Below are positions 1 through 13,447 of a DNA stretch of 64,000 bases, piece by piece. The DNA comes from Clostridia bacterium. Lineage in GTDB: Bacteria > Bacillota > Clostridia > Oscillospirales > CAG-272. Positions within the stretch are counted from its first letter, which is position 1. The number at the start of each line of letters is the position of its first letter. The stretch is from the NCBI GenBank assembly GCA_017503285.1, contig JAFVTH010000022.1, positions 4,749 to 68,748 of the forward strand, given 5' to 3'. The position numbers and the translations under genes are program-made. The notes under the pieces were generated by a model, which was not told where the DNA came from, ran no database searches, and saw only the letters and a list, made by a program, of their open reading frames with translations.

Positions 1-731
1 TCAAACTCCGGTCCGTCAACGCACGCAAATACAGTTTTGCCACCAACGCTAAGACGACAGCCACCGCACATACCTGTACCGTCAATCATAATCGGGTTCA
101 TTGATGCAACGGTTTTTATGCCGTACTCCTTTGTAAGCAGGCACACAAACTTCATCATTGGCAAAGGTCCGATGGTAATAACCTCATCAAACTTATGCCC
201 TGCCTCAATAAGCTCCTTAAGTGCATTTGTAACAAGCCCCTGCTTGCCTGCTGTGCCGTCATCTGTCATAAGCACAAAATTGCTTGACGCTTTCTTGAAC
301 TCGTCCTCTAAAATAACAAGGTCCTTGCTTCTGAAGCCACAAATTGCGTGAACCTCACAGCCCAAGCCGTGGAGCTTTTTGGCAACCGGATATGCAATAG
401 CGCAGCCAACACCACCACCAACAACGGCAACCTTTTTAAGCCCATCTGTATGGGTAGCCTTGCCAAGCGGACCAACAAAGTCACAAAGCGCCTCGCCCTT
501 TTCCATATGGGCAAGCCTTTCGGTTGTTGCGCCAACTACTTGGAAAATGATTGTAACGCTACCGCGCTTTCTGTCAAAGTCTGCTATTGTGAGAGGAATC
601 CTCTCACCGTCCTCGTGAGTACGAAGAATTATAAACTGCCCCGGCTCTGCCTTTTTGGCAACCAAGGGAGCTTCTATATCCATAAGCACAACCGTTGGGT
701 TGAGAACCTTTTTCTTAAGTATCTTGTACAT
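1..731 (-). CDS. FAD/NAD(P)-binding oxidoreductase subunit of the sulfide/dihydroorotate dehydrogenase-like (NfnA / ferredoxin-NADP+ reductase alpha) family; 3' end runs off the window
   Basis: Absent from the ORF track because it is open at the window edge. Minus-strand translation from ATG 731..729 (GGAG 5 nt upstream) reads MYKILKKKVLNPTVVLMDIEAPLVAKKAEPGQFIILR...VAVVGGGVGCAIAYP...MIDGTGMCGGCRLSVGGKTVFACVDGPEF with no stop. It has a GGGxG fold and a C-terminal Cys cluster. Plus-strand ORFs 37..746 are shadow frames. Confidence 0.7.
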   Translation of the reverse strand, partial: MYKILKKKVLNPTVVLMDIEAPLVAKKAEPGQFIILRTHEDGERIPLTIADFDRKRGSVTIIFQVVGATTERLAHMEKGEALCDFVGPLGKATHTDGLKKVAVVGGGVGCAIAYPVAKKLHGLGCEVHAICGFRSKDLVILEDEFKKASSNFVLMTDDGTAGKQGLVTNALKELIEAGHKFDEVITIGPLPMMKFVCLLTKEYGIKTVASMNPIMIDGTGMCGGCRLSVGGKTVFACVDGPEF

Positions 732-740
732 ATCTACTCC

Positions 741-1577
741 TTATAGGTCGTAGGTAGCCTTTGAAAGCTTTTTGCTAAGCACCTGATAAAAGCTTCTTTC
801 TGCCACCTTGATAATTTTTGCGCATTTACTATGCTTCCTAATTCTAACCACGTCGCCGTCGTATATATCAATTGCGTTTTCGCCATCAATTTGGAGTGAT
901 GGGTTGCCAACCTTGGTAATGCTGTTTACGCTAACCTTGATTTCAAGAGTGTCGCCACCACCGATAACAATAGATGAACGCGGATAATATTTCGGAGAAA
1001 CAGGTGTTAGAACCATATTGTCCGCAGTCGGGGTCAAAACAGGTCCGCCGGCAGACATATTGTACGAGGTGGAGCCGGTTGGGGTTGCAACAATAAAGCC
1101 GTCACCAACTGCGGTTTGGGTAAGCGCACCGTTTATGTAAATCTCCAAGGAAAATGCCTTGAGCAAGGATGAACGATAAAACGCAGCCTCGTTAAGTGCA
1201 ACGAAGGAGCAAACCACCTTGTCCTCTCTTACAATCTCGCCCTCAATAAGAAGCCTGTTTTCAATGTTATATTTACCTTCAACAACGCTGGATATAGCTT
1301 CAATTGCTGTATCCGGATTACACTCGGTAAGATAGCCAAGGCTACCAAAATTAATGCCAAGCACAGGCGTGTTTACGGTACACATTTTTTTGCAGGCACG
1401 CAAAAGTGTACCGTCTCCACCAAGGACAAGAGCAAAATCTGCGCCCTCCCTTGGCATTTCATGCTCGGTTAGCACGGAAACCTCGTAGCCATTATTTATT
1501 AAAATTTCAGTTGCGATTTTAGAAAAGGAAACGCTTTGTTCTTTTAGGTAATTGGGTACTATAATTGCCTTCTTCAT
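741..1577 (-). CDS. nadK: NAD kinase
   Basis: 278 aa with LVLGGDGTLL and ATPTGSTSYN motifs. The stop lies 10 nt upstream of the next minus-strand gene. Confidence 0.9.
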   Translation of the reverse strand: MKKAIIVPNYLKEQSVSFSKIATEILINNGYEVSVLTEHEMPREGADFALVLGGDGTLLRACKKMCTVNTPVLGINFGSLGYLTECNPDTAIEAISSVVEGKYNIENRLLIEGEIVREDKVVCSFVALNEAAFYRSSLLKAFSLEIYINGALTQTAVGDGFIVATPTGSTSYNMSAGGPVLTPTADNMVLTPVSPKYYPRSSIVIGGGDTLEIKVSVNSITKVGNPSLQIDGENAIDIYDGDVVRIRKHSKCAKIIKVAERSFYQVLSKKLSKATYDL

Positions 1578-1654
1578 AGTAAATCCCCCTTAAACTGATT
1601 AATAAAAACATTTTAGCACGTTATATGCTATTTGTCAATTATAAAATAATATAA

Positions 1655-1678
1655 ATAAAAAAGGCGGTATAAACCGCC
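1655..1678 (-). terminator. Rho-independent terminator closing the cotJ operon
   Basis: Hairpin GGCGGT-ATAA-ACCGCC (1663..1678) followed by a T-run on the minus strand, 5 nt after the cotJC stop (1683..1685). Confidence 0.75.
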
Positions 1679-1682
1679 AATT

Positions 1683-1874
1683 TTATTTGTCAAATGCCGG
1701 GTTGTAGCCGTAGAAGTTCTTTGAATCCATATTGTCCTGTGCTATTCTTAGTGCGTCACAGAAGCGCTGATAGTGAACTACCTCGCGGGCACGAAGGAAC
1801 TTAATTGCGTCGCAAACATCCGGGTCGTCAACAAGCCTTAAAATGTTGTCGTAGGTTGTTCTTGCCTTTTGCTC
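1683..1874 (-). CDS. cotJC: cotJC 3' segment (C-terminal 63 codons of the spore-coat manganese-catalase-family protein CotJC), separated from its 5' segment by the 9.1-kb element
   Basis: Encodes EQKARTTYDNILRLVDDPDVCDAIKFLRAREVVHYQRFCDALRIAQ..., collinear with B. subtilis CotJC EEKARATYQWLIDISDDPDLNDSLRFLREREIVHSMRF. It has no credible start or RBS of its own. The TTG-initiated extension to 1910 in the ORF track lies in element DNA. Confidence 0.85.
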   Translation of the reverse strand, partial: EQKARTTYDNILRLVDDPDVCDAIKFLRAREVVHYQRFCDALRIAQDNMDSKNFYGYNPAFDK

Positions 1875-1900
1875 CGGTGCATTGTTACTAATGCAACCTA
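1875..1900. repeat. Element-side recombination arm (left junction), the inverted partner of 10935..10960
   Basis: cggtgcattgttactaatgcaaccta matches the reverse complement of 10935..10960 at 20 of 26 positions. It starts immediately after the TC dinucleotide at 1873..1874 and overlaps the recombinase stop codon (1898..1900). Confidence 0.7.
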
Positions 1901-3382
1901 AAAATTCCAAAAAATTGTAACGGGGACGATTTTTGTGCCCTTTACCCTTTTTTCAACTACTATTTTCTCAACAAGCATATCCACAAGCTCTCTTGTCAAA
2001 TGTGTCGGGTGTATATAACTATCCAAATTTAGCTCTTTTTCGCCTTTTTGGGTGGTTTTATAGACACGTCTTAGGCTTTTTTGCTCGTTTTCGATTTTTA
2101 TAAGCATTTGCAAAAACAAGTCCTTGCTAATTATTCCGTTTAGCTTATCCTCGTAAATTTGTCTGATTTTGTCCTCGTTTTTCTTAATTTTTTCTTCTGT
2201 GGTTTTGGTATGGCTAAGTGGTTTTATTTTTAACGAAAGCAGCCTTTTTTTGTCTAAATACCGGTCAAATATTTTGTTAAGCTCGGAAAGAACTGTTTTC
2301 TCCAAGCTATCAACCGATATAAACGAGCCTATGCATTCATTTTTAGAAATATAGTGAGTTGGGCATTTTAAGTATGTCTTGCCTTTTGACTTGGAGCTTT
2401 TTAGGGTATAGCCACAATGGGCACAGAAAACCTTTTTTGAAAATACACCTATTTCTCCTGCTTTTTGCGGTCTTGTTTTTTCTGAAAGCATTGCCTGAGC
2501 CTTTTCCCACACTATTTTGTCTATTATAGGTGGGTGGGTGTTTTTTACTATGTACCACCTGTCCCTTGGACGAGGCTTGTTTATCTTGCTTTTGTATGAC
2601 ACGCTGCCATACTTACCCTGCACCATATTTCCTATATACATTTGGTTGTTTAGAATCGATGAAATCGTGGAATACCGCCACAGGGTGCCACTTTTTTCAT
2701 TATTTGTCTTAAATTTTAGTCCCTTTTGTCTTTTGTATGATGAGGGGTTTGGCACACCTTTTTCGTTAAGTGTCTTTGCTATCTTGCTTTTGCCATAACC
2801 ACTGATATAAAGATTAAAAATCAGCCTTACTATCTCTGCTGCCTCCGGGTCGATTTTTAATTTTCCTCTTTCGTTTTCGTCCTTGAGGTAGCCATAAAGT
2901 GCAAAGGAGCCTATGTGTAAGCCGTTTTTCCTTTTAATATCAAACACGCTCTTTATGCTTTCTGACATATCCTCTAAATACCACTCGTTTACAAGCCCGT
3001 TTATTTGTCTTGCCTTTTTGTTGCCCTTTATTTCTGTATCTATGCCATCAACAATGCTCACAAAGCGAATGCCCCACAAGGGAAAAAGGTAGTGTATATA
3101 CCTTTCTACCAGCTCCATCTCCCTTGTGAAGCGTGACTGGGTCTTGCAAAGAATGATTTGAAAAAGTCCTTTCTTGGCATCCTCTATCATTTGATTAAAG
3201 GCAGGGCGATTGCGGTCTGCACCTGTATAGTCGTCATCGCTGTAGATTTTATATATTCCCCAGCCCTTTTTTTCTGCATAATCCCTAAGCATTTGCTTTT
3301 GATTTATAATACTTTCCGAGTCCTTTTCTTCTCTTTTATTCCTGTCCTCCTCGGAGAGTCTACAATAAATTGCGACCTGCAT
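1898..3382 (-). CDS. Large serine recombinase (resolvase/invertase N-domain + recombinase domain + zinc ribbon + coiled coil)
   Basis: 494 aa from ATG 3382 (RBS GAGGAAAG). Contains MQVAIYCRLSEEDRNK...SESIINQ (catalytic Ser motif), a conserved central recombinase region and a zinc ribbon CAHCGYTLKS..KCPTH. The track's TTG start at 3397 is less likely. Confidence 0.9.
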   Translation of the reverse strand: MQVAIYCRLSEEDRNKREEKDSESIINQKQMLRDYAEKKGWGIYKIYSDDDYTGADRNRPAFNQMIEDAKKGLFQIILCKTQSRFTREMELVERYIHYLFPLWGIRFVSIVDGIDTEIKGNKKARQINGLVNEWYLEDMSESIKSVFDIKRKNGLHIGSFALYGYLKDENERGKLKIDPEAAEIVRLIFNLYISGYGKSKIAKTLNEKGVPNPSSYKRQKGLKFKTNNEKSGTLWRYSTISSILNNQMYIGNMVQGKYGSVSYKSKINKPRPRDRWYIVKNTHPPIIDKIVWEKAQAMLSEKTRPQKAGEIGVFSKKVFCAHCGYTLKSSKSKGKTYLKCPTHYISKNECIGSFISVDSLEKTVLSELNKIFDRYLDKKRLLSLKIKPLSHTKTTEEKIKKNEDKIRQIYEDKLNGIISKDLFLQMLIKIENEQKSLRRVYKTTQKGEKELNLDSYIHPTHLTRELVDMLVEKIVVEKRVKGTKIVPVTIFWNF

Positions 3383-3479
3383 TTTTTCTTTCCTCAAGCG
3401 CCTTTATTTGCTCAATATACCATTTTGTAAGCTCCTGCTTTTTTAGCTCATTCTTGAAGATGTTTGTTACTTTTTCCAT
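3360..3479 (-). CDS. Hypothetical 39-aa ORF overlapping the recombinase start (possible directionality-factor candidate, or just 5' UTR)
   Basis: MEKVTNIFKNELKKQELTKWYIEQIKALEERKNAGRNLL. Its 3' end overlaps the recombinase start by 23 nt in another frame. No Shine-Dalgarno sequence is visible. A TAAAAT box ends 5 nt before the ATG, so only a leaderless mRNA would work. Confidence 0.2.
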   Translation of the reverse strand: MEKVTNIFKNELKKQELTKWYIEQIKALEERKNAGRNLL

Positions 3480-3504
3480 GTTACATTTTATGTTAGATAT
3501 GAAA

Positions 3505-3530
3505 GAAAAAAGACAGGAAAACCCTGTCTT
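3505..3530 (-). terminator. Rho-independent terminator of the STAND gene
   Basis: Minus strand GACAGG-gtttt-CCTGTC followed by TTTTTT, starting 6 nt after the stop at 3536. Confidence 0.75.
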
Positions 3531-3535
3531 TTTAA

Positions 3536-6500
3536 TTAATTTAGCTTTTCCTTTATCGTCTCTATAAGCTCTTGGATTTGCTTTTTTTGCTCCTGACAAG
3601 CAAGCTCAAGCACAGCTTCAGCCTCGCTATTAAACAATTGTAGATACTTTTTAGTGCCTTCGCTATCTATTTCATAAATTTGAATAAGCATTTCCCCGCA
3701 AGCGATTACCATATTGTGGCTTTGCGCTTCGTTTATTTGCGCATGCATCTTAGCAAGCATTATGACAGCCTCACAGGACTTGGTTCTTATATCTTCCTTT
3801 ATTAGCAAACCGTATTTATCTGCTGTGCCAACAAGTCTAACAGCATATTTTTCAGCAAGACGCATTTCCTCGCGCTTTAGTGCAAATTCAAGCCCCTCGT
3901 TGTAAGTATTTATAAGCTGTTCTAAGGCTTTATCGCTATTTGTTTTGATAACCAATAGCTCCATTGCCCTTGCTTTGCTTGCTATACAGCTTTGTCTTTT
4001 TTGCTTGTCGTGGAAATATTTACGTTTAGCATAGGCGTTCTTTAGTTTATCAAAGGTTTGTGCAAGTACATTGCAGTAATCCTCCGCCCCTTGCTCATCC
4101 ATAGCGTTTATAGTGCTTTCCACCTGTTCAAGGGCAAGCCTTGCATGCTTCAGAGCGTTAGGATAGTACATTTTTCTGTCATTTTCAGCTATAATTTCGA
4201 CAGTTGTTACAGCAAAATTAAAGGCTTTTTCTAAGTACTCCCACTCTTTTTCCTTATCTCCTGCATTTTTATATCCGTTTGCAATAGATAAAAGAATGTC
4301 GTAGACCTTCAAATCCTCATAGGTGCATTCTTCCCTTGCGTCGATTTCATATAGTTGTCCTATAAGATCAAGAATCTCCTCTTGCATATCTATGCCAAGT
4401 AGAGCTGTTTCCTTGTTTTCAGAGCTTGTGTATGCAGTTGCCATCTCAATCCTTGCATGTAATGGATAAAGAATTTTATCCTGCTCATCGGCAAAATCCA
4501 GGTTGTTTATTATTTCAAATGCCATTTCTGCCTCATCAAGGCGCTTTACATTTGAAGCGGCAGCTATCATTTCTCTGTAAATCTCGCTTTTTGCCTCTGG
4601 AGCAAGTATGCTTTTATCTCCAAGCATGCTAAGCATAGTGTCTGCTACATTTTCTAAAGCTTCCCTCTCGGCAATAATTGATACAGCTTCCTTCATGAGC
4701 TCAAAGCTATAATCGTATTTATCAGTTATTTTACAGAGTCTAATGATTTTTGCAAGCTTATAATTCATAAGTGCTATATCAAGTGGCTCTTCACCATCAA
4801 GTGCTTTAATGATTTCTCTTGCCCTTGATAAATAATCATAGGAATTTATGTAACTTGAAGAGCCATAGTATGTGCATCCAAGACGATAATATGTTATATA
4901 TTGTAGCTTTTTGTAAATATTATCATCAAAATCATTTACAAGCCCGTCTATAACTTGCCTTGCCTCCTTGCCTATCCTTTGGGCACGAAGATAGCCACGC
5001 ATAGTGTCGGTAAATATGCAAGCCTCCATATATCTTGCAAGAAGACAATATTTCGAAAGCCTTGATTCCTTGCTATTTTGACCTTCTAAAATTGCCATTC
5101 TTCTTTTGTAGGCTCTTTCTAACATTTCTCTGCCTTCATTACACTCAGAAATCATAAGAAAGCTGAGATTGCCAAAAATAGCGTTTTCATAATCGCAGTT
5201 TTGATAATCCTTTTCAAAGTTCTTTTCCTTGTCAAGACCAAAAACCGACCATTCAGTAGCTTCATTTTGACTATATTCAAATAGAGGTGACATGGCATCC
5301 ATCATCGCCTGGTCCCTATTCATAGCTCCACTTAAGTCGCCAAAATACATAAGTCCGATGACATTTATGCCTGCAAGAGCCTGCTTGCTTTTAGAGGTTT
5401 GGGTTTCGTCGCTTATTTTTTTATAAAGGCTTTTTGCCTTTTTATAGGCTTTTTTTGCATCATTATCCTTTATAGCGCCACCAAGCATTTTCGTAATTGA
5501 CGAAAAGATTGAAGCTTGGGAATCGTTTTCCTCGAACATACCCATACCGCACCTTGCAACCGCAGTGTTTACTATATCCTGATAAAGTGAGGCAAGCACA
5601 TCTTGTACCTCGTAGCTTACCACAGGCTTTGTGTCCATATACGCCTCAATTTCTTTGATTAGCTGGCTGGAAAAATCTACTTCAAGCGCGCTACTATACT
5701 GCTTTTCCTTTGACAAAATCGCACGCTCGGCAAGGGTCAATCTTCTATATATTTCCGCTTTTTTGATTAGATAACTTTCTTTTTCCAGATTTTTTTCATC
5801 AAGCAAAGCCACTGCCTTTAAAAAGTAATCCTTTGCGTTTTGACCTGCTTTTTGCTCACCCATACCGATGTAAGCCTCAAGCAAGGTATCCTTATCGTCG
5901 CTGTCTTCTAAAAGCTCAATTGCCTTTTGATAATATTCCGTTGCACACAAGCAATACTCTGTACCACTAAAGGTGTTATAGCCCTTTGCCACCCCAGTAT
6001 ATGCCCTTGCCAAGGCAGTTTTATTTTCCAGCCTCTGTGCATAGCTAACAGCTGTTTCATAGCTTATGCACATATCCTCCATTGAAAAGCCAAGGCTGAT
6101 TTCTGCACTTACATTTCCAAGTAAAATATAGGCATTTATCAAAAGCTCAAGCATTTTGTCATCCTGCGGCAATGATTCTATTAGCTTGATGCTTGCATAC
6201 AAGCTTCTCGCTCTTGCCTCAAGCTGGCTTTTTGTTTGTCCGAAATATGATGGTAATGTATTAACTAAGAATTCTAACACCTCATAGCTTGGATTTTCTT
6301 TGATGTAAGAGCAAAGCTCGTCAAGCCATACGCCCTCATCCTCCAAGCATTTTTCTGCTAAGGCAGATGCAACATATGAAAGCGATTCCTTGGTGGCTGA
6401 CACAATTTGCTCCACAAAGGATAATTTGTTATCAGCACAAATTGCGTGATAAGCACATTCTTGAGCCTTTAGTAAATCATCGTTTTCTAAGCTTGATATA

Positions 6501-8239
6501 TATTTCAAAAGCTGGGCGTGGATTTTACTCTTTTCCTCTGCGAGGGTATGGCACAAGCCCTGTCTAAAGCTACGGTGGACAAAGTCAACCCTACCATCTG
6601 CACGAATAAATAGTGAGTCTCTTAAATAGTGAATAAATGAAGAAAAATCAAGTCCGTTCCATTGGTCCTTAAGGAGAGCCTTTAGATCGCCTTGCCTCAA
6701 GCCATAGCGAGAAAAAGCAAGATATCTAGCACATTTTCCTATAAGCTCAGGGTTGATTCTTTCAGCTGAATCAAGAAACAGGCAAACGCTCATTTCCTCA
6801 AGGGTGTGTGGTACATTTTCAAGCAAGGATAATTGATGCTCCGTTATGGCTGACATACCATCACCAGCCTCACGAATACGCAAAAAGTCCTCCTCGTTCA
6901 TCATAACGAGGCGTTGCATTAACAAGTCAAGATAAAGTGGGTTTTTTGCCCCTGCTTTTCTCATAACGGCATTTTTTACCTCTTTGGAAAGCTCTCTGCG
7001 TCTTGCCTTTTCAATGCCTACTATTATTTCACCTATTTCTTCGTCGCTTGCGCATTTCCAAGTATATTTGGATAGGTGTGTGCTTGTCTTAAAATCGCTT
7101 GTGGCGGTTGAAACGAATTTTACATATTTTGATGTTTTGGTTGGAACAAAAATAAGCTGGTCACGGTTTTCGTCTGCTGAAAGCTGGTCAAGGCTATCTA
7201 CCAAAATAGCAACCATTTGCTTTTTAACTTGGCATTGGTTTGTTAAGAGGTATAGTCTATTTTTTAATTCCTCTATTGTGTTAATTTTTAGCTCTCTTGT
7301 AAGTCCAAGCTGTAATTCCAATGCTTCTACAATAACCTCTAAAACACCATATGCATTACTTGTTTTGGTGGTAAGAGACGAAAAAACAGGTATAGTTTTA
7401 TATCCCTTTTTCTCAAAAGCATCGTTATAATATGCCATTAGTGTGCTTTTACCACTTCCACTTTCGCCAAGAATTAAAGCGCCTGCATCATTTGCGTTTA
7501 TGTTTGAAAATAGCTTATCGGCTTCTTTCCTTTTTGCGTAAAAATGAGTTAGCTTGTCCTTGGCATATAGCCTATGCACCCTTAGTTCCTTTTCAATAGG
7601 AGTCAGGCTGGCTGTTGCCTGCCAGTCTGATTTTAGGATTGACAAAACATCCTCTGCCACCATTTTGGCAAAGGAATCTATTTGTGTAAGCTCATTATTT
7701 TCCCATTTTACCCTGTAGGTTTTTACAGAGCCACCACTAATTTTCATTATCCTTTGCTTAAGCTCCTTAAGCTTTTGATAATGATAGTCGTCCTCTTGCT
7801 TGTAAATATCAGGGATATCACCCTCGATTTCTCTAAAATAGAAAAGAGTTCGTCCGTTTTTTCTCTTTTCATTAAGAGCGCCATATTCTATTTCCAATGT
7901 GGTAACGCTCTTTTCCAAATCGTCAAGCTTGATACCATATCTTTTGGCAGCAGAGCCAACGATTTTTTCATCTGGAATCCAACCGTAGCGATATCCTAAA
8001 ATAACAACCATAGGTGGCTGACAATGGTCGATTTCGTCAAGGCAAACATTTAAAACCTTTGTTGAGCCTGCGTCACTTTCCATATCCTCGGTATTTACGC
8101 CCCAACGAAGGTCGCATATTTCCACGCTTTCCCCCCATTTTTTTGCTTCCTCATATAGAATAGGGAGAGTGATTTTTTGCAGAGCATCGCGCTCCTTATG
8201 CATATCCTTAAAGGTGCTTGATACAAATATTGTTTTCAT
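3536..8239 (-). CDS. NLR-like STAND NTPase: DUF4062-type N-terminal domain + NACHT-like P-loop NTPase + long TPR-like repeat region (1567 aa)
   Basis: The start is moved to ATG 8239 (GGAGG 8 nt upstream); the 25-codon extension in the track has no RBS. The N-terminus MKTIFVSSTFKDMHKERDAL...ICDLRWGV...CLDEIDHC..VVILGYRYGWIP matches the DUF4062 pattern seen at the N-terminus of NWD1-type NACHT proteins. Walker A is GESGSGKST (7442..7468) and Walker B is MVAILVDSLDQL (7181..7216, like the NACHT DGxDE motif). The C-terminal ~1100 aa are helical TPR-like repeats (for example ARAYTGVAKGYNTFSG..YYQKAIELLE). Confidence 0.75.
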   Translation of the reverse strand: MKTIFVSSTFKDMHKERDALQKITLPILYEEAKKWGESVEICDLRWGVNTEDMESDAGSTKVLNVCLDEIDHCQPPMVVILGYRYGWIPDEKIVGSAAKRYGIKLDDLEKSVTTLEIEYGALNEKRKNGRTLFYFREIEGDIPDIYKQEDDYHYQKLKELKQRIMKISGGSVKTYRVKWENNELTQIDSFAKMVAEDVLSILKSDWQATASLTPIEKELRVHRLYAKDKLTHFYAKRKEADKLFSNINANDAGALILGESGSGKSTLMAYYNDAFEKKGYKTIPVFSSLTTKTSNAYGVLEVIVEALELQLGLTRELKINTIEELKNRLYLLTNQCQVKKQMVAILVDSLDQLSADENRDQLIFVPTKTSKYVKFVSTATSDFKTSTHLSKYTWKCASDEEIGEIIVGIEKARRRELSKEVKNAVMRKAGAKNPLYLDLLMQRLVMMNEEDFLRIREAGDGMSAITEHQLSLLENVPHTLEEMSVCLFLDSAERINPELIGKCARYLAFSRYGLRQGDLKALLKDQWNGLDFSSFIHYLRDSLFIRADGRVDFVHRSFRQGLCHTLAEEKSKIHAQLLKYISSLENDDLLKAQECAYHAICADNKLSFVEQIVSATKESLSYVASALAEKCLEDEGVWLDELCSYIKENPSYEVLEFLVNTLPSYFGQTKSQLEARARSLYASIKLIESLPQDDKMLELLINAYILLGNVSAEISLGFSMEDMCISYETAVSYAQRLENKTALARAYTGVAKGYNTFSGTEYCLCATEYYQKAIELLEDSDDKDTLLEAYIGMGEQKAGQNAKDYFLKAVALLDEKNLEKESYLIKKAEIYRRLTLAERAILSKEKQYSSALEVDFSSQLIKEIEAYMDTKPVVSYEVQDVLASLYQDIVNTAVARCGMGMFEENDSQASIFSSITKMLGGAIKDNDAKKAYKKAKSLYKKISDETQTSKSKQALAGINVIGLMYFGDLSGAMNRDQAMMDAMSPLFEYSQNEATEWSVFGLDKEKNFEKDYQNCDYENAIFGNLSFLMISECNEGREMLERAYKRRMAILEGQNSKESRLSKYCLLARYMEACIFTDTMRGYLRAQRIGKEARQVIDGLVNDFDDNIYKKLQYITYYRLGCTYYGSSSYINSYDYLSRAREIIKALDGEEPLDIALMNYKLAKIIRLCKITDKYDYSFELMKEAVSIIAEREALENVADTMLSMLGDKSILAPEAKSEIYREMIAAASNVKRLDEAEMAFEIINNLDFADEQDKILYPLHARIEMATAYTSSENKETALLGIDMQEEILDLIGQLYEIDAREECTYEDLKVYDILLSIANGYKNAGDKEKEWEYLEKAFNFAVTTVEIIAENDRKMYYPNALKHARLALEQVESTINAMDEQGAEDYCNVLAQTFDKLKNAYAKRKYFHDKQKRQSCIASKARAMELLVIKTNSDKALEQLINTYNEGLEFALKREEMRLAEKYAVRLVGTADKYGLLIKEDIRTKSCEAVIMLAKMHAQINEAQSHNMVIACGEMLIQIYEIDSEGTKKYLQLFNSEAEAVLELACQEQKKQIQELIETIKEKLN

Positions 8240-8270
8240 ACAGATTCCTCCAAATGATGTCCTTATCTTA

Positions 8271-8299
8271 ATTATACAGGTTTTTTTCACATATTGCAA
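8271..8299 (-). promoter_or_regulatory. SigmaA-type promoter of the STAND gene
   Basis: Minus strand TTGCAA-17 nt-TATAAT, about 30 nt upstream of the RBS. Confidence 0.6.
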
Positions 8300-8300
8300 G

Positions 8301-8327
8301 AAAAAAAGCGACACGGGGGTCGCTTTT
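8301..8327 (-). terminator. Terminator of asnA
   Basis: GCGAC-CCCCGT-GTCGC hairpin with a T-run on the minus strand, directly after the asnA stop (8328..8330). Confidence 0.7.
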
Positions 8328-9335
8328 TTATAGTAGAACTATGTTGTTTTCCTTGCACACCTTATATGTTTCCTCGTCCCAAATGGAAACCTGCACCTCG
8401 CCAATATGCGCCTTGCCGAGAAGAAGCATGGAAAGACGAGATTGACCGATACCGCCACCCATTGTAAGCGGAAGCTCGCCATTTAAGAGCATTTTGTGGA
8501 ATGGAAGGCTTCTCCTTTCATCCTTGCCGGATGCGCTAAGCTGGTAGTCAAGTGATTTTTCATCAACTCTAATACCCATTGAGGAAATTTCAAAGGCGTG
8601 GCCGAGCAGCTCATTATAGAAAAGAATGTCGCCGTTTAGCTCCCAGTCATCATAGTCGGGGGCACGGTTGTCATGAGGCATACCGGACTTAAGCTTGCCA
8701 CCGATTTTCATAATGAAGGCTGTGCCAACCTCCTTTAGGTAAAGGTCCTCCCTTTCCTTAGAGGTTTTGCCGGGGTACATATCCTCAAGCTCCTGTGAGG
8801 TGATAAATGAAACCTCACGATTGAGATTTACATTAATTTGTGGGTAGGAGCATTTTAGAACATCAAGTGTTTCGCAAATTGCGCCAACGATGCATTTTAC
8901 CACCGTTTTCATATATTCTATGGTGCGTGTTTCGGTTGTTATAATCTTTTCCCAGTCCCATTGGTCGGTGTAGATGGAGTGGATATTATCCATTTCCTCA
9001 TCACGGCGAATAGCGTTCATATCTGTATAGATGCCCTCGCCTGCTGAAAAGCCGTATTCCTTAAGTGCCATACGCTTCCATTTCGCAAGAGAGTGAACGA
9101 TAACCGCGCTTTTACCGGTTTCCTTAATTTCAAAGTCAACTGCACGCTCAACACCGCTCAAATCGTCGTTAATACCCATATTTGGGTCAACGAACAATGG
9201 CGCAGATACACGCCTTAGGTTGAGGGCAAGGCAAAGCTTATCCTCGAAGGTCCTTTTAAGAGTGCCGATGGCTCTTTGTGTTTCATACATTGTAAGGGCA
9301 GATTTGTAGCCCTTGGGAATAATAATCTTGCTCAT
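8328..9335 (-). CDS. asnA: Aspartate-ammonia ligase (asparagine synthetase A)
   Basis: 335 aa from ATG 9335 (MSKIIIPKGYKS). Collinear with E. coli AsnA, including HSLAKWKR, DQWDWEK, APDYDDW, GGGIGQSRL and HIGEVQ. Confidence 0.9.
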   Translation of the reverse strand: MSKIIIPKGYKSALTMYETQRAIGTLKRTFEDKLCLALNLRRVSAPLFVDPNMGINDDLSGVERAVDFEIKETGKSAVIVHSLAKWKRMALKEYGFSAGEGIYTDMNAIRRDEEMDNIHSIYTDQWDWEKIITTETRTIEYMKTVVKCIVGAICETLDVLKCSYPQINVNLNREVSFITSQELEDMYPGKTSKEREDLYLKEVGTAFIMKIGGKLKSGMPHDNRAPDYDDWELNGDILFYNELLGHAFEISSMGIRVDEKSLDYQLSASGKDERRSLPFHKMLLNGELPLTMGGGIGQSRLSMLLLGKAHIGEVQVSIWDEETYKVCKENNIVLL

Positions 9336-9431
9336 AATATGTCCTTTATGCCTTACGGGAGTGAAACGAATCAGTTTTGGAACGGACAAAAAACCCGTCT
9401 TTGGCGTTAAAATTTTTTGAAATATTTTTAT

Positions 9432-9456
9432 AAAAGGGGCTTTGAAGCCCCCTTTG
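9432..9456 (-). terminator. Terminator of asnS
   Basis: GGGGC/GCCCC hairpin followed by TTTT on the minus strand, about 10 nt after the asnS stop. Confidence 0.6.
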
Positions 9457-9465
9457 TTTCTTGAA

Positions 9466-10842
9466 TTAGAGGCTACCTACTGTTCTTGGGAACAAAAGTG
9501 TATCTCTTATGTTTTGTACGCCTGTTAGATACATCATGGCTCTGTCAAAGCCAAGACCGAAACCACTATGTGGAACGCTGCCAAACTTTCTTGTATCAAG
9601 GTATTCCTTGTACATTTCAAGCGGCATGCCACGCTGTAGCATTGCACTTTCAAGCTTCTTGTAGTCCCATTCTCTTTCACTGCAGCCGATGATTTCGCGA
9701 ATGCCAGGAACTAAAAGGTCAGTTGCGGCAACGGTTTTTCCGTCGTCATTTTGCTTCATATAGAACGCCTTAATATCCTTTGGATAATCAACAACGAATA
9801 CAGGCTTCTTAAAGTATTCATCAGTTAGGTACTTCTCGTGCTCTGTCTGAAGGTCACAGCCCCACTCAACAGGATACTTAAAGTCCTTGCCACTCTTTTT
9901 GAGAACCTCAACAGCCTCGGTATAGGTAATTCTACCAAAGTCGCTATTTACAACGTTATTTAGCTTGTCAATAAGACCGGGCTCAACCCATTGATTAAAG
10001 AACTGAAGCTCCTCCGAGCAAACGTCCATAACATAGCGGATGATGTACTTAATAAAGTCCTCGGCGATTTCGATAATATCATCAATTTCAGCAAAGCAAA
10101 CCTCAGGCTCAATCTGCCAGAACTCTGCTGCGTGACGAGTTGTATTACTATGCTCTGCGCGGAAGGTTGGACCAAAGGTGTAAATCCTACCAAGACCCAT
10201 AGCAGCCATTTCGCCCTCTAGCTGAGCAGAAACGGTAAGACCTGCCTTTTGACCGAAGAAGTCGTTTTGATAATACTCCTCCTCGCTCTTAAAATCGGTT
10301 GTCCAAGGCTGAGTTGTTACACGGAACATCTCGCCTGCGCCCTCACAGTCACTACCTGTGATGATTGGTGCGTGAACATATTTATAATCGTTTTCGTTAA
10401 AGTACTTGTGTACAGCAAAGGAAAGCTGGTTACGAACTGCAAAAACAGCCTCGAAGTATCTTGCCCTTGGACGAAGATGTGGGATTGTACGAAGGAACTC
10501 AAGAGTATGTCTCTTCTTCTGGAGAGGATAATCCTGTGGACACTCGCCCAAAACCTTAATATCAGTAACGGTGATTTCATATCCGTTCTTTTCAGATACG
10601 ATAAACTTGCCCTCAACACGGAGTGAGGCACCAACCACCATTGCATTTTTCATATCATCAAGCTGGAGATTTTCCTTTTCCAAAATGAGCTGAATATTCT
10701 TAAGGCAGGTGCCATCATTAAGCTCAATAAAGGAAATAGTTTTAGAATCTCTTGCTGTTCTAACCCAACCACAAATAACTACGCTTTGGTCAATATAATC
10801 CTGTGGGTTTTGGAAAAGCTTTTTTATGTCTGTATGCTTCAT
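9466..10842 (-). CDS. asnS: Asparaginyl-tRNA synthetase (class IIb)
   Basis: 458 aa from ATG 10842 (MKHTDIKKLF). An N-terminal OB-fold anticodon-binding region is followed by a class II core (FRAE..TTRHAAEFWQIEPE, GFGLGFDR). ATG 10860 is an alternative start. Confidence 0.9.
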   Translation of the reverse strand: MKHTDIKKLFQNPQDYIDQSVVICGWVRTARDSKTISFIELNDGTCLKNIQLILEKENLQLDDMKNAMVVGASLRVEGKFIVSEKNGYEITVTDIKVLGECPQDYPLQKKRHTLEFLRTIPHLRPRARYFEAVFAVRNQLSFAVHKYFNENDYKYVHAPIITGSDCEGAGEMFRVTTQPWTTDFKSEEEYYQNDFFGQKAGLTVSAQLEGEMAAMGLGRIYTFGPTFRAEHSNTTRHAAEFWQIEPEVCFAEIDDIIEIAEDFIKYIIRYVMDVCSEELQFFNQWVEPGLIDKLNNVVNSDFGRITYTEAVEVLKKSGKDFKYPVEWGCDLQTEHEKYLTDEYFKKPVFVVDYPKDIKAFYMKQNDDGKTVAATDLLVPGIREIIGCSEREWDYKKLESAMLQRGMPLEMYKEYLDTRKFGSVPHSGFGLGFDRAMMYLTGVQNIRDTLLFPRTVGSL

Positions 10843-10883
10843 TTTGAACATAGCCCCCATAAATATTTATAATTAATATGATT

Positions 10884-10912
10884 ATTATACAACTTTTATA
10901 TTTACAAGTCAA
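10884..10912 (-). promoter_or_regulatory. SigmaA-type promoter of asnS, inside the element
   Basis: Minus strand TTGACT-17 nt-TATAAT. It sits between the right junction and asnS. Confidence 0.65.
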
Positions 10913-10934
10913 CAACTTTTTTTATTTTTTGCAT

Positions 10935-10960
10935 AAGCTTGCATTTGTAGCTATGCACCA
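10935..10960. repeat. Element-side recombination arm (right junction), the inverted partner of 1875..1900
   Basis: aagcttgcatttgtagctatgcacca. Its reverse complement, tggtgcatagctacaaatgcaagctt, matches 1875..1900 at 20 of 26 positions. It ends immediately before the TC at 10961..10962. Confidence 0.7.
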
Positions 10961-11367
10961 TCTGCTGCTAAGTCCTCGTTTAAGTCTGTTATAACATCGC
11001 CCTTGGACTGGAATTGAGCTGCGCTGTATGGGAAGCCACTGGCTGCAACCGGGTATATGCCTGTTGTGTGGTCTACAAAGTAGGTGTCAAAGCCACTCTT
11101 TACTATTTCGTCAGGGGTTAGGTTTCTTGTAAGCTGATAGAGGATTGCGGATATCATCTCAAAGTGCGCAAGCTCCTCCGTGCCAACATCCGTTAGGATT
11201 CCAACCACCTTGGAGTATGGCATTGCTATTCTTTGAGTAAGGTAGCGAAGCGATGCTCCGATTTCTCCATCAGGTCCACCTAATTGGCTGACTATAATTT
11301 GAGCATATTTTGGGTTTGGATTTTTAATGTTTACAGGGTATTGAAGCTTTTTCTCGTATTGCCACAT
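10961..11367 (-). CDS. cotJC: cotJC 5' segment (N-terminal 135 codons plus the first 2 nt of the split Glu codon); as integrated, the frame runs 3 codons into element DNA to a TAG at 10951
   Basis: MWQYEKKLQYPVNIKNPNPKYAQIIVSQLGGPDGEIGASLRYLTQR...LTDVGTEELAHFEMI...SKGDVITDLNEDLAA is collinear with B. subtilis CotJC MWVYEKKLQYPVKV...LTDIGTEEFAHLEMI...AKGDPIADLYEDIAA. RBS GGAGG. Confidence 0.9.
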
Positions 11368-11370
11368 ATA

Positions 11371-11637
11371 TTATTTCCTCCCCTCGTCGTTTTGCCATGG
11401 CCATGGTCCCTCTGTCCATTGCCAGCTTGTTGCATCCTCCGGCATTGTAATAGGTCCATATTTTTGCTCATATTCTGCCCTTGCCCTTGCCTCAAGCTTT
11501 TTGTACTTGTTGTAAAAGTCCAAGGCAGCCTTGGAGTCCGGGTAGGCATCAAGATACAAAAGCGCCTCGTATACAGCAAAGGAATAGCTTTGAAGCTCTC
11601 TTAGGCATCTTTGTCTGGTTCTGTCATTTTTCATCAT
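11371..11637 (-). CDS. cotJB: Spore coat protein CotJB
   Basis: 88 aa with LQSYSFAVYEALLYLDAYPDSKAAL and the C-terminal WQWTEGPWPWQ signature. Strong RBS GGGGAGGGG. Confidence 0.85.
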   Translation of the reverse strand: MMKNDRTRQRCLRELQSYSFAVYEALLYLDAYPDSKAALDFYNKYKKLEARARAEYEQKYGPITMPEDATSWQWTEGPWPWQNDEGRK

Positions 11638-11928
11638 TTACAGACACCCCTCCCCACCATTTTGTCTTTTGTTGCCACAGCCACTGCGCATAAAGGGCTT
11701 GTGAAGCTGGGAAAAGATTGTGCCATTGACTAATGCAATTTCAGGGTCGTAAAGACTACAAAAATCCTGTCTTACAGGGTAAACCATAGCAAGATGGGGC
11801 GACCCTGTGTTTGAATTTGTATGATTTTCGCACTTTGACTCTGCTTTAGCAATAAATGCAGAAAAGGCATTAAAATCTGCTTCTCTTTGTCTTCTTGACA
11901 TAGAATCAAGTCTCATATTGTTCTCCAT
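11638..11928 (-). CDS. cotJA: Spore coat-associated protein CotJA
   Basis: LAMVYPVRQDFCSLYDPEIALVNGTIFSQLHKPF matches the CotJA signature. The start is ATG 11928, or more likely ATG 11916 (GGAG 6 nt upstream). The 176-aa form in the track, reaching 12168, crosses the divergent promoter region and is rejected. Confidence 0.8.
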   Translation of the reverse strand: MENNMRLDSMSRRQREADFNAFSAFIAKAESKCENHTNSNTGSPHLAMVYPVRQDFCSLYDPEIALVNGTIFSQLHKPFMRSGCGNKRQNGGEGCL

Positions 11929-11952
11929 TCTGAGCCTTTTCGGCTCTTTAAT

Positions 11953-11979
11953 AGCATATGACAAAATAAGACAATATTC
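11953..11979 (-). promoter_or_regulatory. Candidate sigmaE-type (mother-cell) promoter of cotJABC
   Basis: Minus strand GAATATT-12 nt-CATATGCT, compared with the B. subtilis sigmaE consensus kmATATT / CATACAmT. cotJ is sigmaE-dependent in B. subtilis. The spacer may be a little short. Confidence 0.35.
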
Positions 11980-12091
11980 TACTTTCTTTTTATTTATACC
12001 GGTAAAATTGTTGTAATTTTTTTCTTTTCTCTTCCTTTTTTTGTTTTTTGGTGCTATAATGACCTTATATATTCTAAAAAGGAGCTTACTT

Positions 12092-13447
12092 ATGAATATA
12101 GTTATTATCGGCCTTGGCACCATTGGCGAAACAGTCCTTAAAAGCCTTTCCGGCGAGGGACACACCATAACAATTATTGACGGAAACGAAAATAAGGTTG
12201 AGTCCCTAATTGAAAAGTATGATATTTTCGGCGTGGTTGGTAACGGCGCTTGTATGGATATTCAAAGGGAGGCCGGTGTTGAAAACGCTGACCTTGCTAT
12301 TGTTCTTACCAACAGTGATGAGCTTAATGTTTTTGCTTGTCTTGTTGCAAAAAGGCTTGGTGTGCAAAACACAATTGCTCGTGTAAGAAACCCAGACTAT
12401 CAGCAGCAAATTATAGATATGAAGGACACCCTTGGCCTTTCTATGATTGTAAATCCTGAGATGGAAACAGCACAGGAAATTTTTAATCTTATAAGCCTAC
12501 CCTCCATTGAGCAGGTTGAGCGTTTTGCTAAGGGCAAGGCACTTTTGGTTGAAATTTATCTTGAAAAGGGCTGCTCTCTTATCGGCGAAAGCCTTATTAC
12601 CATGTCAAAAAAGGTAAATACAAGGGTGCTTATCTGTGCTGTACAGCGCGGTGACCAGGTTGTTATACCTTCCGGTAACTTTGTGTTTGAAGAGGGTGAC
12701 TGCGTACACTTTACCTCTGATGCAAGCTCTCTTGACGACTTTTTAAGAGAGGTTAACATTGTTAGCTCCCCTCTTAAGAGAATTATGATTATTGGTGGTG
12801 GCAGAATCGGCTTTTATCTTGCCGAAATGCTTTCCTCTAAAAAATACGAAATCAAGCTTATGGCAAGCAATCTTGAGGAGGCTGAGGAGCTGGCGGAAAC
12901 TCTGCCTAAGGTTACTGTTATCCATGGTAATGGCACTCAGCACGACTTATTGATTGAAGAGGGCATTGAGGCTATGGACGCCTTTGTTGCTCTTACAAAA
13001 ATCGATGAGGAGAATATGATTGCCTCAATGTTTGCAAATAAGATGAAGGTAAAAAAGACTATCTCTCAAATTAAGAACGATAGCCTTTACGATATGCTTA
13101 GCGAGCTTGATATCGACAACAACGTTTCTCCTAAGAACATTGTTGCAAACAAAATTATAAGCTATGTGCGCGCCCTTGCAAACAAGCGTGGCAGTAACAT
13201 ACTTACACTTTATCGTCTTGTTAACAACCGGGTTGAGGCCCTTGAATTTCTTGCTAAAAAAGAGGAGAAGTTCTTTAACAAGCCTCTTAGAACTATTAAA
13301 ACAAAGGATAACTGCCTTGTTGCCTGCATTATCAGAGATGGCAAGGTTATTATCCCTGACGGTAATTCTTCAATTCAGCTTGGAGATAATGTTATCGTCG
13401 TTACCACACACAAAAGCTTTGATGACTTAAATGATATTCTTGATTAA
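12092..13447 (+). CDS. trkA: Trk system K+ uptake protein TrkA (double RCK)
   Basis: 451 aa from ATG 12092 (AAGGAG RBS). Two NAD-binding motifs, IIGLGTIG and IIGGGRIG, each followed by an RCK_C region. Confidence 0.85.
   Translation: MNIVIIGLGTIGETVLKSLSGEGHTITIIDGNENKVESLIEKYDIFGVVGNGACMDIQREAGVENADLAIVLTNSDELNVFACLVAKRLGVQNTIARVRNPDYQQQIIDMKDTLGLSMIVNPEMETAQEIFNLISLPSIEQVERFAKGKALLVEIYLEKGCSLIGESLITMSKKVNTRVLICAVQRGDQVVIPSGNFVFEEGDCVHFTSDASSLDDFLREVNIVSSPLKRIMIIGGGRIGFYLAEMLSSKKYEIKLMASNLEEAEELAETLPKVTVIHGNGTQHDLLIEEGIEAMDAFVALTKIDEENMIASMFANKMKVKKTISQIKNDSLYDMLSELDIDNNVSPKNIVANKIISYVRALANKRGSNILTLYRLVNNRVEALEFLAKKEEKFFNKPLRTIKTKDNCLVACIIRDGKVIIPDGNSSIQLGDNVIVVTTHKSFDDLNDILD

What the first reader, a model, noticed from the sequence alone, without database searches (positions are those of the whole stretch)
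8328..10912. Element cargo 2: an asnS-asnA asparagine module sits inside DNA predicted to be excised
Seen in sequence:
- A complete asparaginyl-tRNA synthetase gene has its own TTGACT-17-TATAAT promoter and terminator.
- A complete aspartate-ammonia ligase AsnA lies beside it. Both lie between the two cotJC halves, so by topology they belong to the element.
- A glutamine-dependent asnB lies outside the element at 28966..30780.

Established knowledge:
- AsnA is an evolutionary offshoot of the class IIb synthetase core.
- AsnRS plus AsnA together give the direct route to Asn-tRNA(Asn). Many Firmicutes can instead use a non-discriminating AspRS plus GatCAB.
- Extra aaRS copies on mobile DNA are a known route to resistance against aaRS inhibitors.

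Inference, three alternatives:
- The pair is the only asnS. It would then act as an addiction-like anchor that penalises loss of the element from the germline, while remaining dispensable in the terminal mother cell.
- It is a horizontally moving direct-pathway module.
- It is an inhibitor-resistant second copy.

Any of the three would be unusual cargo for a skin-like element.
Basis: partly seen in the sequence, partly recalled or inferred. Interest (0 to 1): 0.6.

Follow-up and report, generated by a model that had tools for sequence, protein, structure and literature searches.

The report
Asparagine genes inside excisable cotJC element
An uncultured gut Clostridium keeps its own housekeeping genes for charging tRNA with asparagine (asnS) and for making asparagine (asnA) inside a small mobile element that splits a spore-coat gene, which probably makes the element hard to lose, but I could not check whether this is the only asnS in the genome.

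Summary
Complete asnS (9466..10842) and asnA (8328..9335) lie on the minus strand inside a 9,088-bp large-serine-recombinase element (1873..10960). The element splits cotJC at a TC dinucleotide. Joining the flanks in silico gives a 198-aa CotJC that is 94% identical, without gaps, to the intact gene of a sister species.

The pair is not foreign:
- Its AsnRS nests inside the host clade's tree.
- AsnRS and AsnA identities fall in step across relatives, which carry the same tandem at ordinary chromosomal loci.
- Its codon usage resembles the host's.

asnS-asnA-recombinase is the constant backbone of the element in every same-species contig and metagenome examined. Other cargo varies: a STAND NTPase here, a 17-kb block in other strains. 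Synonymous divergence matches the flanking genes, pN/pS is 0.014-0.08, and asnS RNA appears in a bovine metatranscriptome.

None of 80 related recombinase loci carries asnS or asnA, although 73 abut a cotJC fragment.

No AsnRS 84-98% identical exists in 5.8 billion proteins. No second copy at 80% or higher nucleotide identity exists in three source-like metagenomes.

Best reading: the native operon was relocated onto the element and anchors it. The horizontal-transfer and resistance-copy readings are disfavoured.

The parts
9466..10842 (-). asnS, asparaginyl-tRNA synthetase (458 aa)
   Evidence: NF003037 at 611.5 bits against a cut-off of 414, and TIGR00457 at 580 bits. Motifs FRAE and GFGLGFDR are present. 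pN/pS is 0.05-0.08 between strains. A 1,319-nt RNA contig in metatranscriptome X25 covers 9518..10836.
10884..10912 (-). sigma-70-type promoter of asnS (TTGACT-17-TATAAT)
   Evidence: 11 of 12 matches, the best site in the region. It lies 49 nt inside the attL crossover, and its sequence is shared by both structural variants of the element.
9336..9465 (-). asnS-asnA spacer: terminator-like hairpin after asnS, plus one remaining arm (9346..9374) of a palindromic insert found in other strains
   Evidence: Sequence read. Other strains carry a 196-nt or roughly 280-nt longer palindromic insert at window position 9430/9432. The fold z-score is -10.4.
8328..9335 (-). asnA, aspartate-ammonia ligase (335 aa), followed by a terminator at about 8300..8327
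   Evidence: TIGR00669 at 321.8 bits against a cut-off of 292.8, and PF03590 at 338 bits. pN/pS is 0.014. The start codon and terminator are read.
3536..8239 (-). DUF4062-STAND NTPase gene, a strain-variable cargo cassette (window 3493..8323 is absent from other strains)
   Evidence: PF13271 and nSTAND1/AAA hits. The cassette is absent in L085-L091 and L183, where asnA is followed directly by the recombinase gene.
1898..3382 (-). large serine recombinase (494 aa)
   Evidence: Resolvase + Recombinase + Zn_ribbon_recom domains. pN/pS is 0.08-0.10. 73 of 80 relatives at 52-55% identity abut a cotJC fragment.
1873..10960 (-). the whole 9,088-bp intervening element (TC crossover at 1873-1874 and 10961-10962; imperfect inverted arms at 1875..1900 and 10935..10960)
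   Evidence: Sister species have an intact cotJC at the syntenic site.
10961..11367 (-). cotJC 5' part (the ORF runs on to a stop codon at 10951)
   Evidence: PF05067 profile positions 1-150. It has no non-synonymous differences between strains.
1683..1872 (-). cotJC 3' part
   Evidence: PF05067 profile positions 145-198. It is 99.5-100% identical between strains. Joining it to the 5' part restores LAAEQKAR as in the sister species.

Best explanation
The stretch is the lineage's own, vertically inherited asnS-asnA pair: AsnRS plus the ammonia-dependent asparagine synthetase AsnA. In this species it no longer sits at an ordinary chromosomal locus. It lies inside a cotJC-specific large-serine-recombinase intervening element.

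Together with the recombinase gene, it forms the constant backbone of that element. Two flanking slots hold strain-variable cargo:
- Between attL and the asnS promoter, nothing here and a 17-kb block in other strains.
- Between asnA and the recombinase gene, the STAND NTPase here and nothing in other strains.

asnS is transcribed from its own sigma-70-type promoter, whether or not the element is integrated.

Inferred steps:
- As with skin, SPbeta and gin, the element is probably excised only in the terminal mother cell, which rebuilds cotJC.
- The germ line therefore never loses the operon, and the mother cell keeps it on the excised circle, so carrying it costs nothing.
- A vegetative cell that lost the element would lose what is probably its only canonical asnS. 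The pair therefore acts as an anchor that keeps the element, and whatever defence cargo it carries, fixed in the species.

Shown here: gene identity, location inside the excisable segment, clade-native origin, fixation, purifying selection, single copy at 80% or higher nucleotide identity, and transcription. Inferred: mother-cell-specific excision, sole-copy status, and the anchoring effect.
For: Gene identity and topology.

Clade-native origin:
- Relatives with 76-82% AsnRS identity have asnS, usually followed within 10-35 nt by asnA, in ordinary chromosomal contexts with no cotJC or recombinase within 10 kb.
- AsnRS and AsnA identities co-vary: 81/80, 79/79, 76/78 and 62/60.
- The window's AsnRS sits inside a clade supported at 96/94, on a stem of ordinary length.
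- Identity to relatives equals identity among relatives, as for TyrRS and NadK.
- GC, GC3 and codon distance of asnS and asnA lie within the host range, whereas the recombinase and STAND genes have lower GC.

Insertion rather than ancestral neighbourhood: sister species have a syntenic trkA | cotJA-cotJB-intact cotJC | nadK locus with no asnS there.

Fixation and backbone:
- Every same-species contig has the split cotJC (L085-L094, L183-L186).
- Wherever the sequence reaches, the order is asnS-asnA-recombinase.
- Metagenomes X1, X6, X9 and X10 hold the window-type architecture. X6 is about 1.6% diverged.

Long residence and constraint: pS of asnS (0.04-0.05), asnA (0.08-0.09) and the recombinase (0.11) matches the flanking nadK (0.05-0.07) and the dhodB-like gene (0.10-0.11). 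pN/pS is 0.014-0.08 for asnA and asnS.

No recent duplicate:
- No protein between 83% and 99% identity exists among 5.8 billion.
- In X1-X3 no other piece longer than about 240 nt reaches 80% nucleotide identity.
- Depth over the genes equals depth over the flanks.

Expression: an RNA contig in X25 covers 9518..10836 with 9 mismatches.

Family context: 73 of 80 recombinase relatives abut a cotJC fragment and none carries asnS or asnA.
Against: - I could not search the rest of the genome. A divergent second asnS (below about 80% nucleotide identity), gatCAB or a non-discriminating AspRS may exist.
- One near relative (L177, AsnRS 81%) has an AspRS scoring above the cut-off of the aspartate--tRNA(Asn) ligase model (NF003483, 432 bits against 353). 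It also has a further AsnRS-like paralog next to asnS-asnA. An indirect route is therefore plausible in the clade, and loss of asnS might be costly rather than lethal.
- asnB in the window makes asnA dispensable for asparagine supply.
- Excision has not been observed. No empty-site or circle junction was seen in contigs, and no directionality factor was identified.
- How the operon entered the element is unknown.
Confidence: 0.6

Rival explanations
1. Redundant passenger. The genome has another asnS, or a working ND-AspRS plus GatCAB route. The element copy is then an old duplicate or translocated copy that is useful but not essential. It has no stabilising role and simply hitch-hikes in a fixed element.
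For: The own genome could not be searched. Relative L177 has an Asp-tRNA(Asn)-type AspRS and an AsnRS-like paralog beside asnS-asnA. asnB is present in the window.
Against: - pN/pS of 0.014-0.08 is as low as in the flanking core genes.
- The element copy behaves as the clade ortholog.
- No AsnRS at 84-98% identity exists anywhere in the database, although this species is sampled in at least 8 contigs.
- The pair is kept in every structural variant while other cargo turns over.
Confidence: 0.25
2. Dead insertion. The element no longer excises, cotJC is a pseudogene in this species, and asnS-asnA are in effect ordinary chromosomal genes that happen to lie between two gene remnants.
For: No excision product was seen in any contig set. 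No recombination directionality factor was identified. Every strain has the element.
Against: - The recombinase ORF is intact in all strains, with pN/pS of 0.08-0.10.
- Both cotJC halves show zero non-synonymous changes between strains.
- The halves join in frame to a protein 94% identical to the sister species' CotJC.
- The inverted att arms are retained.
- Unitig contigs would not show a rare excised form in any case.
Confidence: 0.12
3. Horizontally moving direct-pathway module. asnS-asnA is cargo that spreads between hosts with cotJC elements.
For: The pair is self-contained, with its own promoter and terminators. Its chromosomal position differs between related species.
Against: - None of 80 related recombinase loci carries it.
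- The AsnRS is nested in the host clade with ordinary branch lengths.
- Its codon usage resembles the host's.
- Its synonymous divergence equals that of the flanks.
- No close relatives occur on plasmids (55% or less).
Confidence: 0.04
4. Inhibitor-resistant second AsnRS, comparable to mobile ileS2/mupA.
For: Only the general precedent of aaRS resistance genes on mobile DNA (from my own knowledge).
Against: - The protein is an ordinary member of its clade and not a divergent type.
- It is linked to asnA and not to a biosynthetic cluster or resistance context.
- It is fixed in all strains.
- No second close copy exists.
Confidence: 0.03

Closest known systems
gin element in gerE of Bacillus cereus ATCC 10987 (PMC5595907), and the skin (sigK) and SPbeta (spsM) rearrangements (PMC4191935, PMC5025042)
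   Same: A sporulation gene expressed in the mother cell is split in frame by an element with a serine recombinase gene at one end. Short inverted arms flank a crossover dinucleotide, and precise excision would rebuild the gene. Like gin, this element is small and has no phage genes.
   Different: The target is cotJC. Excision and a directionality factor have not been shown here. The conserved cargo is a host-derived aaRS plus amino-acid-synthesis pair, which I did not find described for any such element in the library searched.
cotJC as an integration target (Abe et al. 2013, as cited in bioRxiv 10.1101/2021.11.22.469490); the family of cotJC-specific recombinase elements in gut Clostridia
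   Same: The same target gene and recombinase family. 73 of 80 recombinase relatives at 52-55% identity abut a cotJC fragment.
   Different: Those elements carry other cargo, such as Schlafen/AlbA_2, an ECF-type sigma factor plus DUF2461, Nramp plus a flavoprotein, or TrkH/TrkA plus a sensor kinase. None carries asnS or asnA.
Chromosomal asnS-asnA tandem of Clostridia (Acutalibacteraceae, Christensenellales and unnamed Clostridia MAGs)
   Same: The same gene order and sizes (458 and 335 aa), with identities of 76-82% (AsnRS) and 77-80% (AsnA) to the nearest species.
   Different: In those genomes the pair sits in ordinary chromosomal neighbourhoods with a 10-35 nt spacer. Here it is inside a mobile element, with a 130-nt spacer that holds a hairpin and a remnant of a palindromic insert.
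Mobile aaRS resistance genes (e.g. mupA/ileS2) and essential genes that stabilise plasmids or chromids (from my own knowledge, not tested here)
   Same: An aaRS gene on mobile DNA. Carrying an essential gene penalises loss of the replicon or element.
   Different: This copy is the host's own ortholog and not a divergent resistant type. The carrier is an integrated, developmentally excised element and not a replicon.

Membership tests
Asparagine--tRNA ligase (AsnRS, class IIb; TIGR00457 / NF003037) | Score above the curated equivalog cut-off, with the full-length OB-fold anticodon-binding domain and the class II core | tested here: met
   611.5 bits against 414 and 580.1 against 342.6. PF01336 and PF00152 both match.
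Asparagine--tRNA ligase (AsnRS, class IIb; TIGR00457 / NF003037) | Class II motifs 2 and 3 intact | tested here: met
   FRAE at residue 227 and GFGLGFDR at residue 427.
Asparagine--tRNA ligase (AsnRS, class IIb; TIGR00457 / NF003037) | Charges tRNA(Asn) with asparagine | not testable with these tools
   This needs an aminoacylation assay or complementation.
Aspartate--ammonia ligase AsnA (TIGR00669 / PF03590) | Score above the curated equivalog cut-off over the full length | tested here: met
   321.8 bits against 292.8, and PF03590 at 338 bits covering profile positions 1-226 of 228.
Sporulation-gene intervening element (skin / SPbeta / gin type) | Interrupts a sporulation gene, and precise removal restores an intact ORF | tested here: met
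   The joined flanks give a 198-aa CotJC that is 93.9% identical, gap-free, to the intact gene at the syntenic site of a sister species.
Sporulation-gene intervening element (skin / SPbeta / gin type) | Encodes its own large serine recombinase next to one att site, with inverted arms around a 2-bp crossover | tested here: met
   Resolvase + Recombinase + Zn_ribbon_recom domains, with the gene ending 24 nt from the TC crossover. The arms match 20 of 26.
Sporulation-gene intervening element (skin / SPbeta / gin type) | [quoted passage not shown] | not testable with these tools
   Only assembled contigs were available. No attB or attP joint was seen, but unitigs drop rare forms.
Sporulation-gene intervening element (skin / SPbeta / gin type) | Has a recombination directionality factor | not tested
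   Outside this finding. None was annotated by Pfam in the ORFs examined.
Essential-gene anchor (addiction-like stabilisation of a mobile element) | The carried gene is the only functional copy in the genome | tested here: inconclusive
   No copy at 80% or higher nucleotide identity exists in X1-X3, and no protein at 84-98% identity exists in the database.
Essential-gene anchor (addiction-like stabilisation of a mobile element) | No bypass route exists (ND-AspRS plus GatCAB) | tested here: inconclusive
   The own genome was not searchable. A near relative has an Asp-tRNA(Asn)-type AspRS (NF003483, 432 bits against 353).
Mobile inhibitor-resistant aaRS paralog | A second copy, divergent from the host's own enzyme and of foreign origin | tested here: not met
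   The gene is nested in the host clade with ordinary branch length, has host-like codon usage, and has no companion copy detected.

The most novel reading that the evidence does not exclude
The organism's only asparaginyl-tRNA synthetase gene lies on DNA that the mother cell cuts out of its chromosome at every sporulation. The intervening element captured the host's essential asnS-asnA operon. This makes the recombinase backbone impossible to lose in the germ line, and turns it into a permanent docking platform on which defence cargo is swapped: the STAND NTPase in some strains, a 17-kb block in others.
Probability: 0.4. Interest if true: 0.7.

Novelty: new variant of a known kind. Interest (0 to 1): 0.5.

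Why it matters
Sporulation-gene intervening elements are usually seen as decayed prophages or small selfish cassettes. Their persistence is explained by excision being confined to a cell that dies.

Here the conserved core of such an element is a host translation gene plus an amino-acid-synthesis gene, while the accessory or defence cargo around it varies between strains.

If asnS is the only copy, this is a natural case of essential-gene capture stabilising a mobile element. It would explain why the element is fixed across strains that have diverged by about 2%. It would also give a simple, testable model of how defence islands acquire a permanent chromosomal address.

It also warns annotators that 'mobile element cargo' can include core genes that completeness or essentiality analyses would not expect there.

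Tried and rejected
- Exact look-up of the window's AsnRS (464-aa and 458-aa forms): not on record.
- The genome-contig scan with AsnRS did not return the window's own genome. The best hit was 76%, so no second copy could be sought that way.
- Matching NCBI protein accession ranges of AsnRS and TyrRS hits, to pair genes from the same MAG: no ranges coincided. I replaced this with the identity-ratio test.
- At first, TyrRS relatives at 89-94% against AsnRS relatives at 83% or less looked like evidence for a foreign AsnRS. I rejected this after NadK (70% or less) and the within-set identities showed the differences reflect protein-specific rates.
- Looking for the excised forms: no 1873-to-10961 joint among the joints listed, and no attP junction in viral contigs.
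- Rfam search of 1..13000 and of the variant spacer: no T-box or other known RNA.
- My first guess of the crossover (TGCA) was wrong. Alignment with intact sister genes places it at TC.
- The recombinase has no close relative among deposited phages (44% or less over part of its length).
Full report
**Observation**

The minus strand of 1..12200 reads, in gene order:
- cotJA (11638..12168)
- cotJB (11371..11637)
- the first 136 codons of cotJC (from 11367)
- asnS
- asnA
- a 1,567-aa DUF4062-STAND NTPase gene
- a 494-aa large serine recombinase gene
- the last 63 codons of cotJC (to 1683)
- nadK

asnS scores 611.5 bits on NF003037 (cut-off 414). asnA scores 321.8 bits on TIGR00669 (cut-off 292.8). 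asnS most likely starts at ATG 10842 and asnA at ATG 9335. That gives 458 and 335 aa, the sizes found in relatives.

The promoter TTGACT-17-TATAAT lies at 10912..10884 and is the best sigma-70-like site in the region. Hairpins followed by T-runs come after both genes. asnB at 28966..30780 is confirmed.

**Junctions**

I aligned both junctions with the intact cotJC of two sister species. This places the crossover at a TC dinucleotide (plus strand) at 1873-1874 and 10961-10962. The element-side arms match 20 of 26 as inverted repeats.

Joining the flanks gives a 198-aa CotJC that is 93.9% and 89.9% identical, without gaps, to the sister proteins. The excisable segment is 9,088 bp. It includes the asnS promoter, asnS and asnA.

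**The element is an insertion and the operon is not local**

The two nearest species found through NadK are GCA_045536275.1 (70% identity) and GCA_017473085.1 (66%). Both have the syntenic layout holB - gap - K+ transporter genes - trkA | cotJA-cotJB-intact cotJC | nadK - dhodB-like - gltD-like. Neither has a recombinase or asnS there.

**Where relatives keep asnS-asnA**

Relatives with 76-82% AsnRS identity carry asnS in ordinary and differing neighbourhoods. In most, asnA follows 10-35 nt downstream. Examples:
- after rplM-rpsI
- beside rho and a Na+/H+ exchanger
- beside a TetR gene
- followed by a GH127 gene instead of asnA

None has cotJC or a related recombinase within 10 kb. The tandem extends to Acutalibacteraceae and Christensenellales MAGs. 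AsnRS and AsnA identities fall together: 81/80, 79/79, 76/78 and 62/60.

**Native or foreign**

- In a maximum-likelihood tree, the window's AsnRS (with its 99% same-species cluster) sits inside a clade of 50 sequences supported at 96/94. It is one of about ten radiating lineages, and its stem (0.26) is as long as its neighbours'.
- Its median identity to the 25 nearest non-self relatives (80.6%) equals their identity to each other (81.6%). The chromosomal markers behave the same way: TyrRS 90.6 against 90.1, and NadK 67.3 against 68.5.
- An apparent discrepancy (TyrRS relatives at 94%, AsnRS relatives at 83%) is therefore a difference in evolutionary rate between proteins.
- GC, GC3 and codon-usage distance of asnS and asnA lie within the range of 38 non-element genes. 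The recombinase and STAND genes have lower GC, at 0.38-0.39 against 0.428 +/- 0.020.

**Population picture**

Same-species contigs from independent ENA and Logan assemblies (98% nucleotide identity) all carry the split cotJC. Wherever they reach far enough, the order is asnS-asnA-recombinase-3' cotJC.

They reveal a second architecture of about 21.5 kb. In it, a 17-kb block lies between the attL arm and the asnS promoter. That block encodes a transglutaminase-like protein, an AAA_2 ATPase, a radical-SAM/Fer4_12 protein, several large proteins without Pfam hits, and a 1,117-aa surface protein. The STAND cassette (window 3493..8323) is absent from this architecture.

Four metagenomes hold the window-type architecture. 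In one of them it is about 1.6% diverged. asnS-asnA-recombinase is therefore the constant backbone, and the other cargo turns over.

Between the two architectures, synonymous divergence is:
- asnS: 0.04-0.05
- asnA: 0.08-0.09
- recombinase: 0.11
- flanking nadK: 0.05-0.07
- flanking dhodB-like gene: 0.10-0.11

pN/pS is 0.05-0.08 for asnS, 0.014 for asnA and 0.08-0.10 for the recombinase. Both cotJC halves have zero non-synonymous changes. This indicates long vertical co-residence and strong constraint on all parts.

**Copy number**

No protein between 83% and 99% identity to this AsnRS exists among 5.8 billion clustered proteins, although the species itself is sampled on at least 8 contigs. 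In three metagenomes that hold the window sequence, no other piece longer than about 240 nt reaches 80% nucleotide identity to asnS or asnA. The depth of the organism's own contigs over these genes also equals the depth over the flanks.

A recent duplicate is therefore excluded.

**Expression**

A bovine metatranscriptome contains a 1,319-nt contig covering asnS 9518..10836 with 9 mismatches, plus shorter contigs on asnA. Nothing lies on the recombinase gene at that threshold. Contig depth is a poor measure of expression, and DNA carry-over is possible.

**Family context**

Eighty recombinase relatives (52-55% identity) came from the metagenome collection. Of these, 73 abut a cotJC fragment:
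- 41 lie upstream of the 3' part, co-directional with it, as here.
- 32 are convergent with the 5' part.

Complete elements of 3.7-8.2 kb carry varied cargo: Schlafen/AlbA_2, an ECF-type sigma factor plus DUF2461, Nramp plus a fumarate-reductase-like flavoprotein plus MarR, and TrkH/TrkA plus a sensor kinase. None carries asnS or asnA.

cotJC was already named as an integration target by Abe et al. 2013, as cited in bioRxiv 10.1101/2021.11.22.469490. The element class is therefore known, and what is new here is the cargo. I found no paper in the library describing an aaRS gene in a sporulation intervening element.

**Interpretation**

The evidence supports a native operon that was relocated onto the element and has been kept there.

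- The horizontal-module reading does not fit the phylogeny, the composition or the family survey.
- The resistance-copy reading does not fit either, because the gene is an ordinary ortholog without a partner copy.
- The anchor reading fits the fixation and backbone pattern. It rests on two untested points: that this is the only asnS, and that no transamidation bypass exists.

A near relative (L177) has an AspRS above the cut-off of the aspartate--tRNA(Asn) ligase model, and an AsnRS-like paralog, right beside asnS-asnA. A bypass is therefore plausible in the clade. asnB makes asnA itself dispensable for asparagine supply.

Mother-cell-specific excision is inferred from skin, SPbeta and gin (PMC4191935, PMC5595907, PMC5025042), from the conservation of the recombinase and the att arms, and from the conservation of both cotJC halves. 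It was not observed.

Noticed in passing
window 9346..9432; L091:20281-20476; L183:6670-7010: The asnS-asnA spacer is a hot spot for palindromic, MITE-like inserts. Some strains have a 196-nt insert whose end is an inverted copy of window 9346..9374; the spacer then folds into one long hairpin (-127 kcal/mol, z = -10.4). Another strain has a different insert of about 280 nt with its own terminal inverted repeats. The window keeps only one arm. Sequences like 9355..9432 occur at 3-8 times the organism's depth in gut metagenomes. There is no Rfam match.
   Followed up: partly
L091:1860-18770 (same species, other strains): An alternative 17-kb cargo block lies between the attL arm and the asnS promoter. 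It encodes a transglutaminase-like protein, an AAA_2 ATPase, a Fer4_12/radical-SAM protein, five large proteins without Pfam hits, and a 1,117-aa Flg_new surface protein. It may be an undescribed defence or surface system.
   Followed up: partly
L095-L174 (metagenome loci): cotJC-specific recombinases form a large family. 73 of 80 relatives abut a cotJC fragment, in two orientations (41 co-directional with the 3' part, 32 convergent with the 5' part). Cargo in complete elements includes a Mn2+-type Nramp transporter inside a Mn-catalase gene (L135) and a TrkH/TrkA pair with a KdpD-like kinase (L155).
   Followed up: partly
L129:1411-4944 and L141:4091-6222: In two loci the cotJC 5' part lies on the opposite strand from the 3' part next to the recombinase gene. 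This could be a recombinase-mediated inversion, a second cotJ locus or a chimeric contig.
   Followed up: no
L177:4307-9404 (relative, AsnRS 81%): A four-gene class IIb cluster: asnS, asnA, an AspRS above the aspartate--tRNA(Asn) ligase cut-off (NF003483, 432 bits), and a 434-aa AsnRS-like paralog that stays below every cut-off.
   Followed up: partly
window 8271..8299 and 3493..8323: The STAND NTPase cassette has its own TTGCAA-17-TATAAT promoter. It replaces a 27-nt stretch and a different asnA terminator found in strains that lack it. Cassette borders coincide with gene ends and terminators.
   Followed up: partly
L179:8443-9861 (sister species): A 472-aa protein with no Pfam or NCBIfam hit lies between intact cotJC and nadK in one sister species. 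It is absent from the other sister species and from the window.
   Followed up: no
L085:17844-18460 (same species; beyond the window's left end): A Fic/PhdYeFM-type toxin-antitoxin pair lies downstream of the gltD-like gene in all same-species contigs.
   Followed up: no
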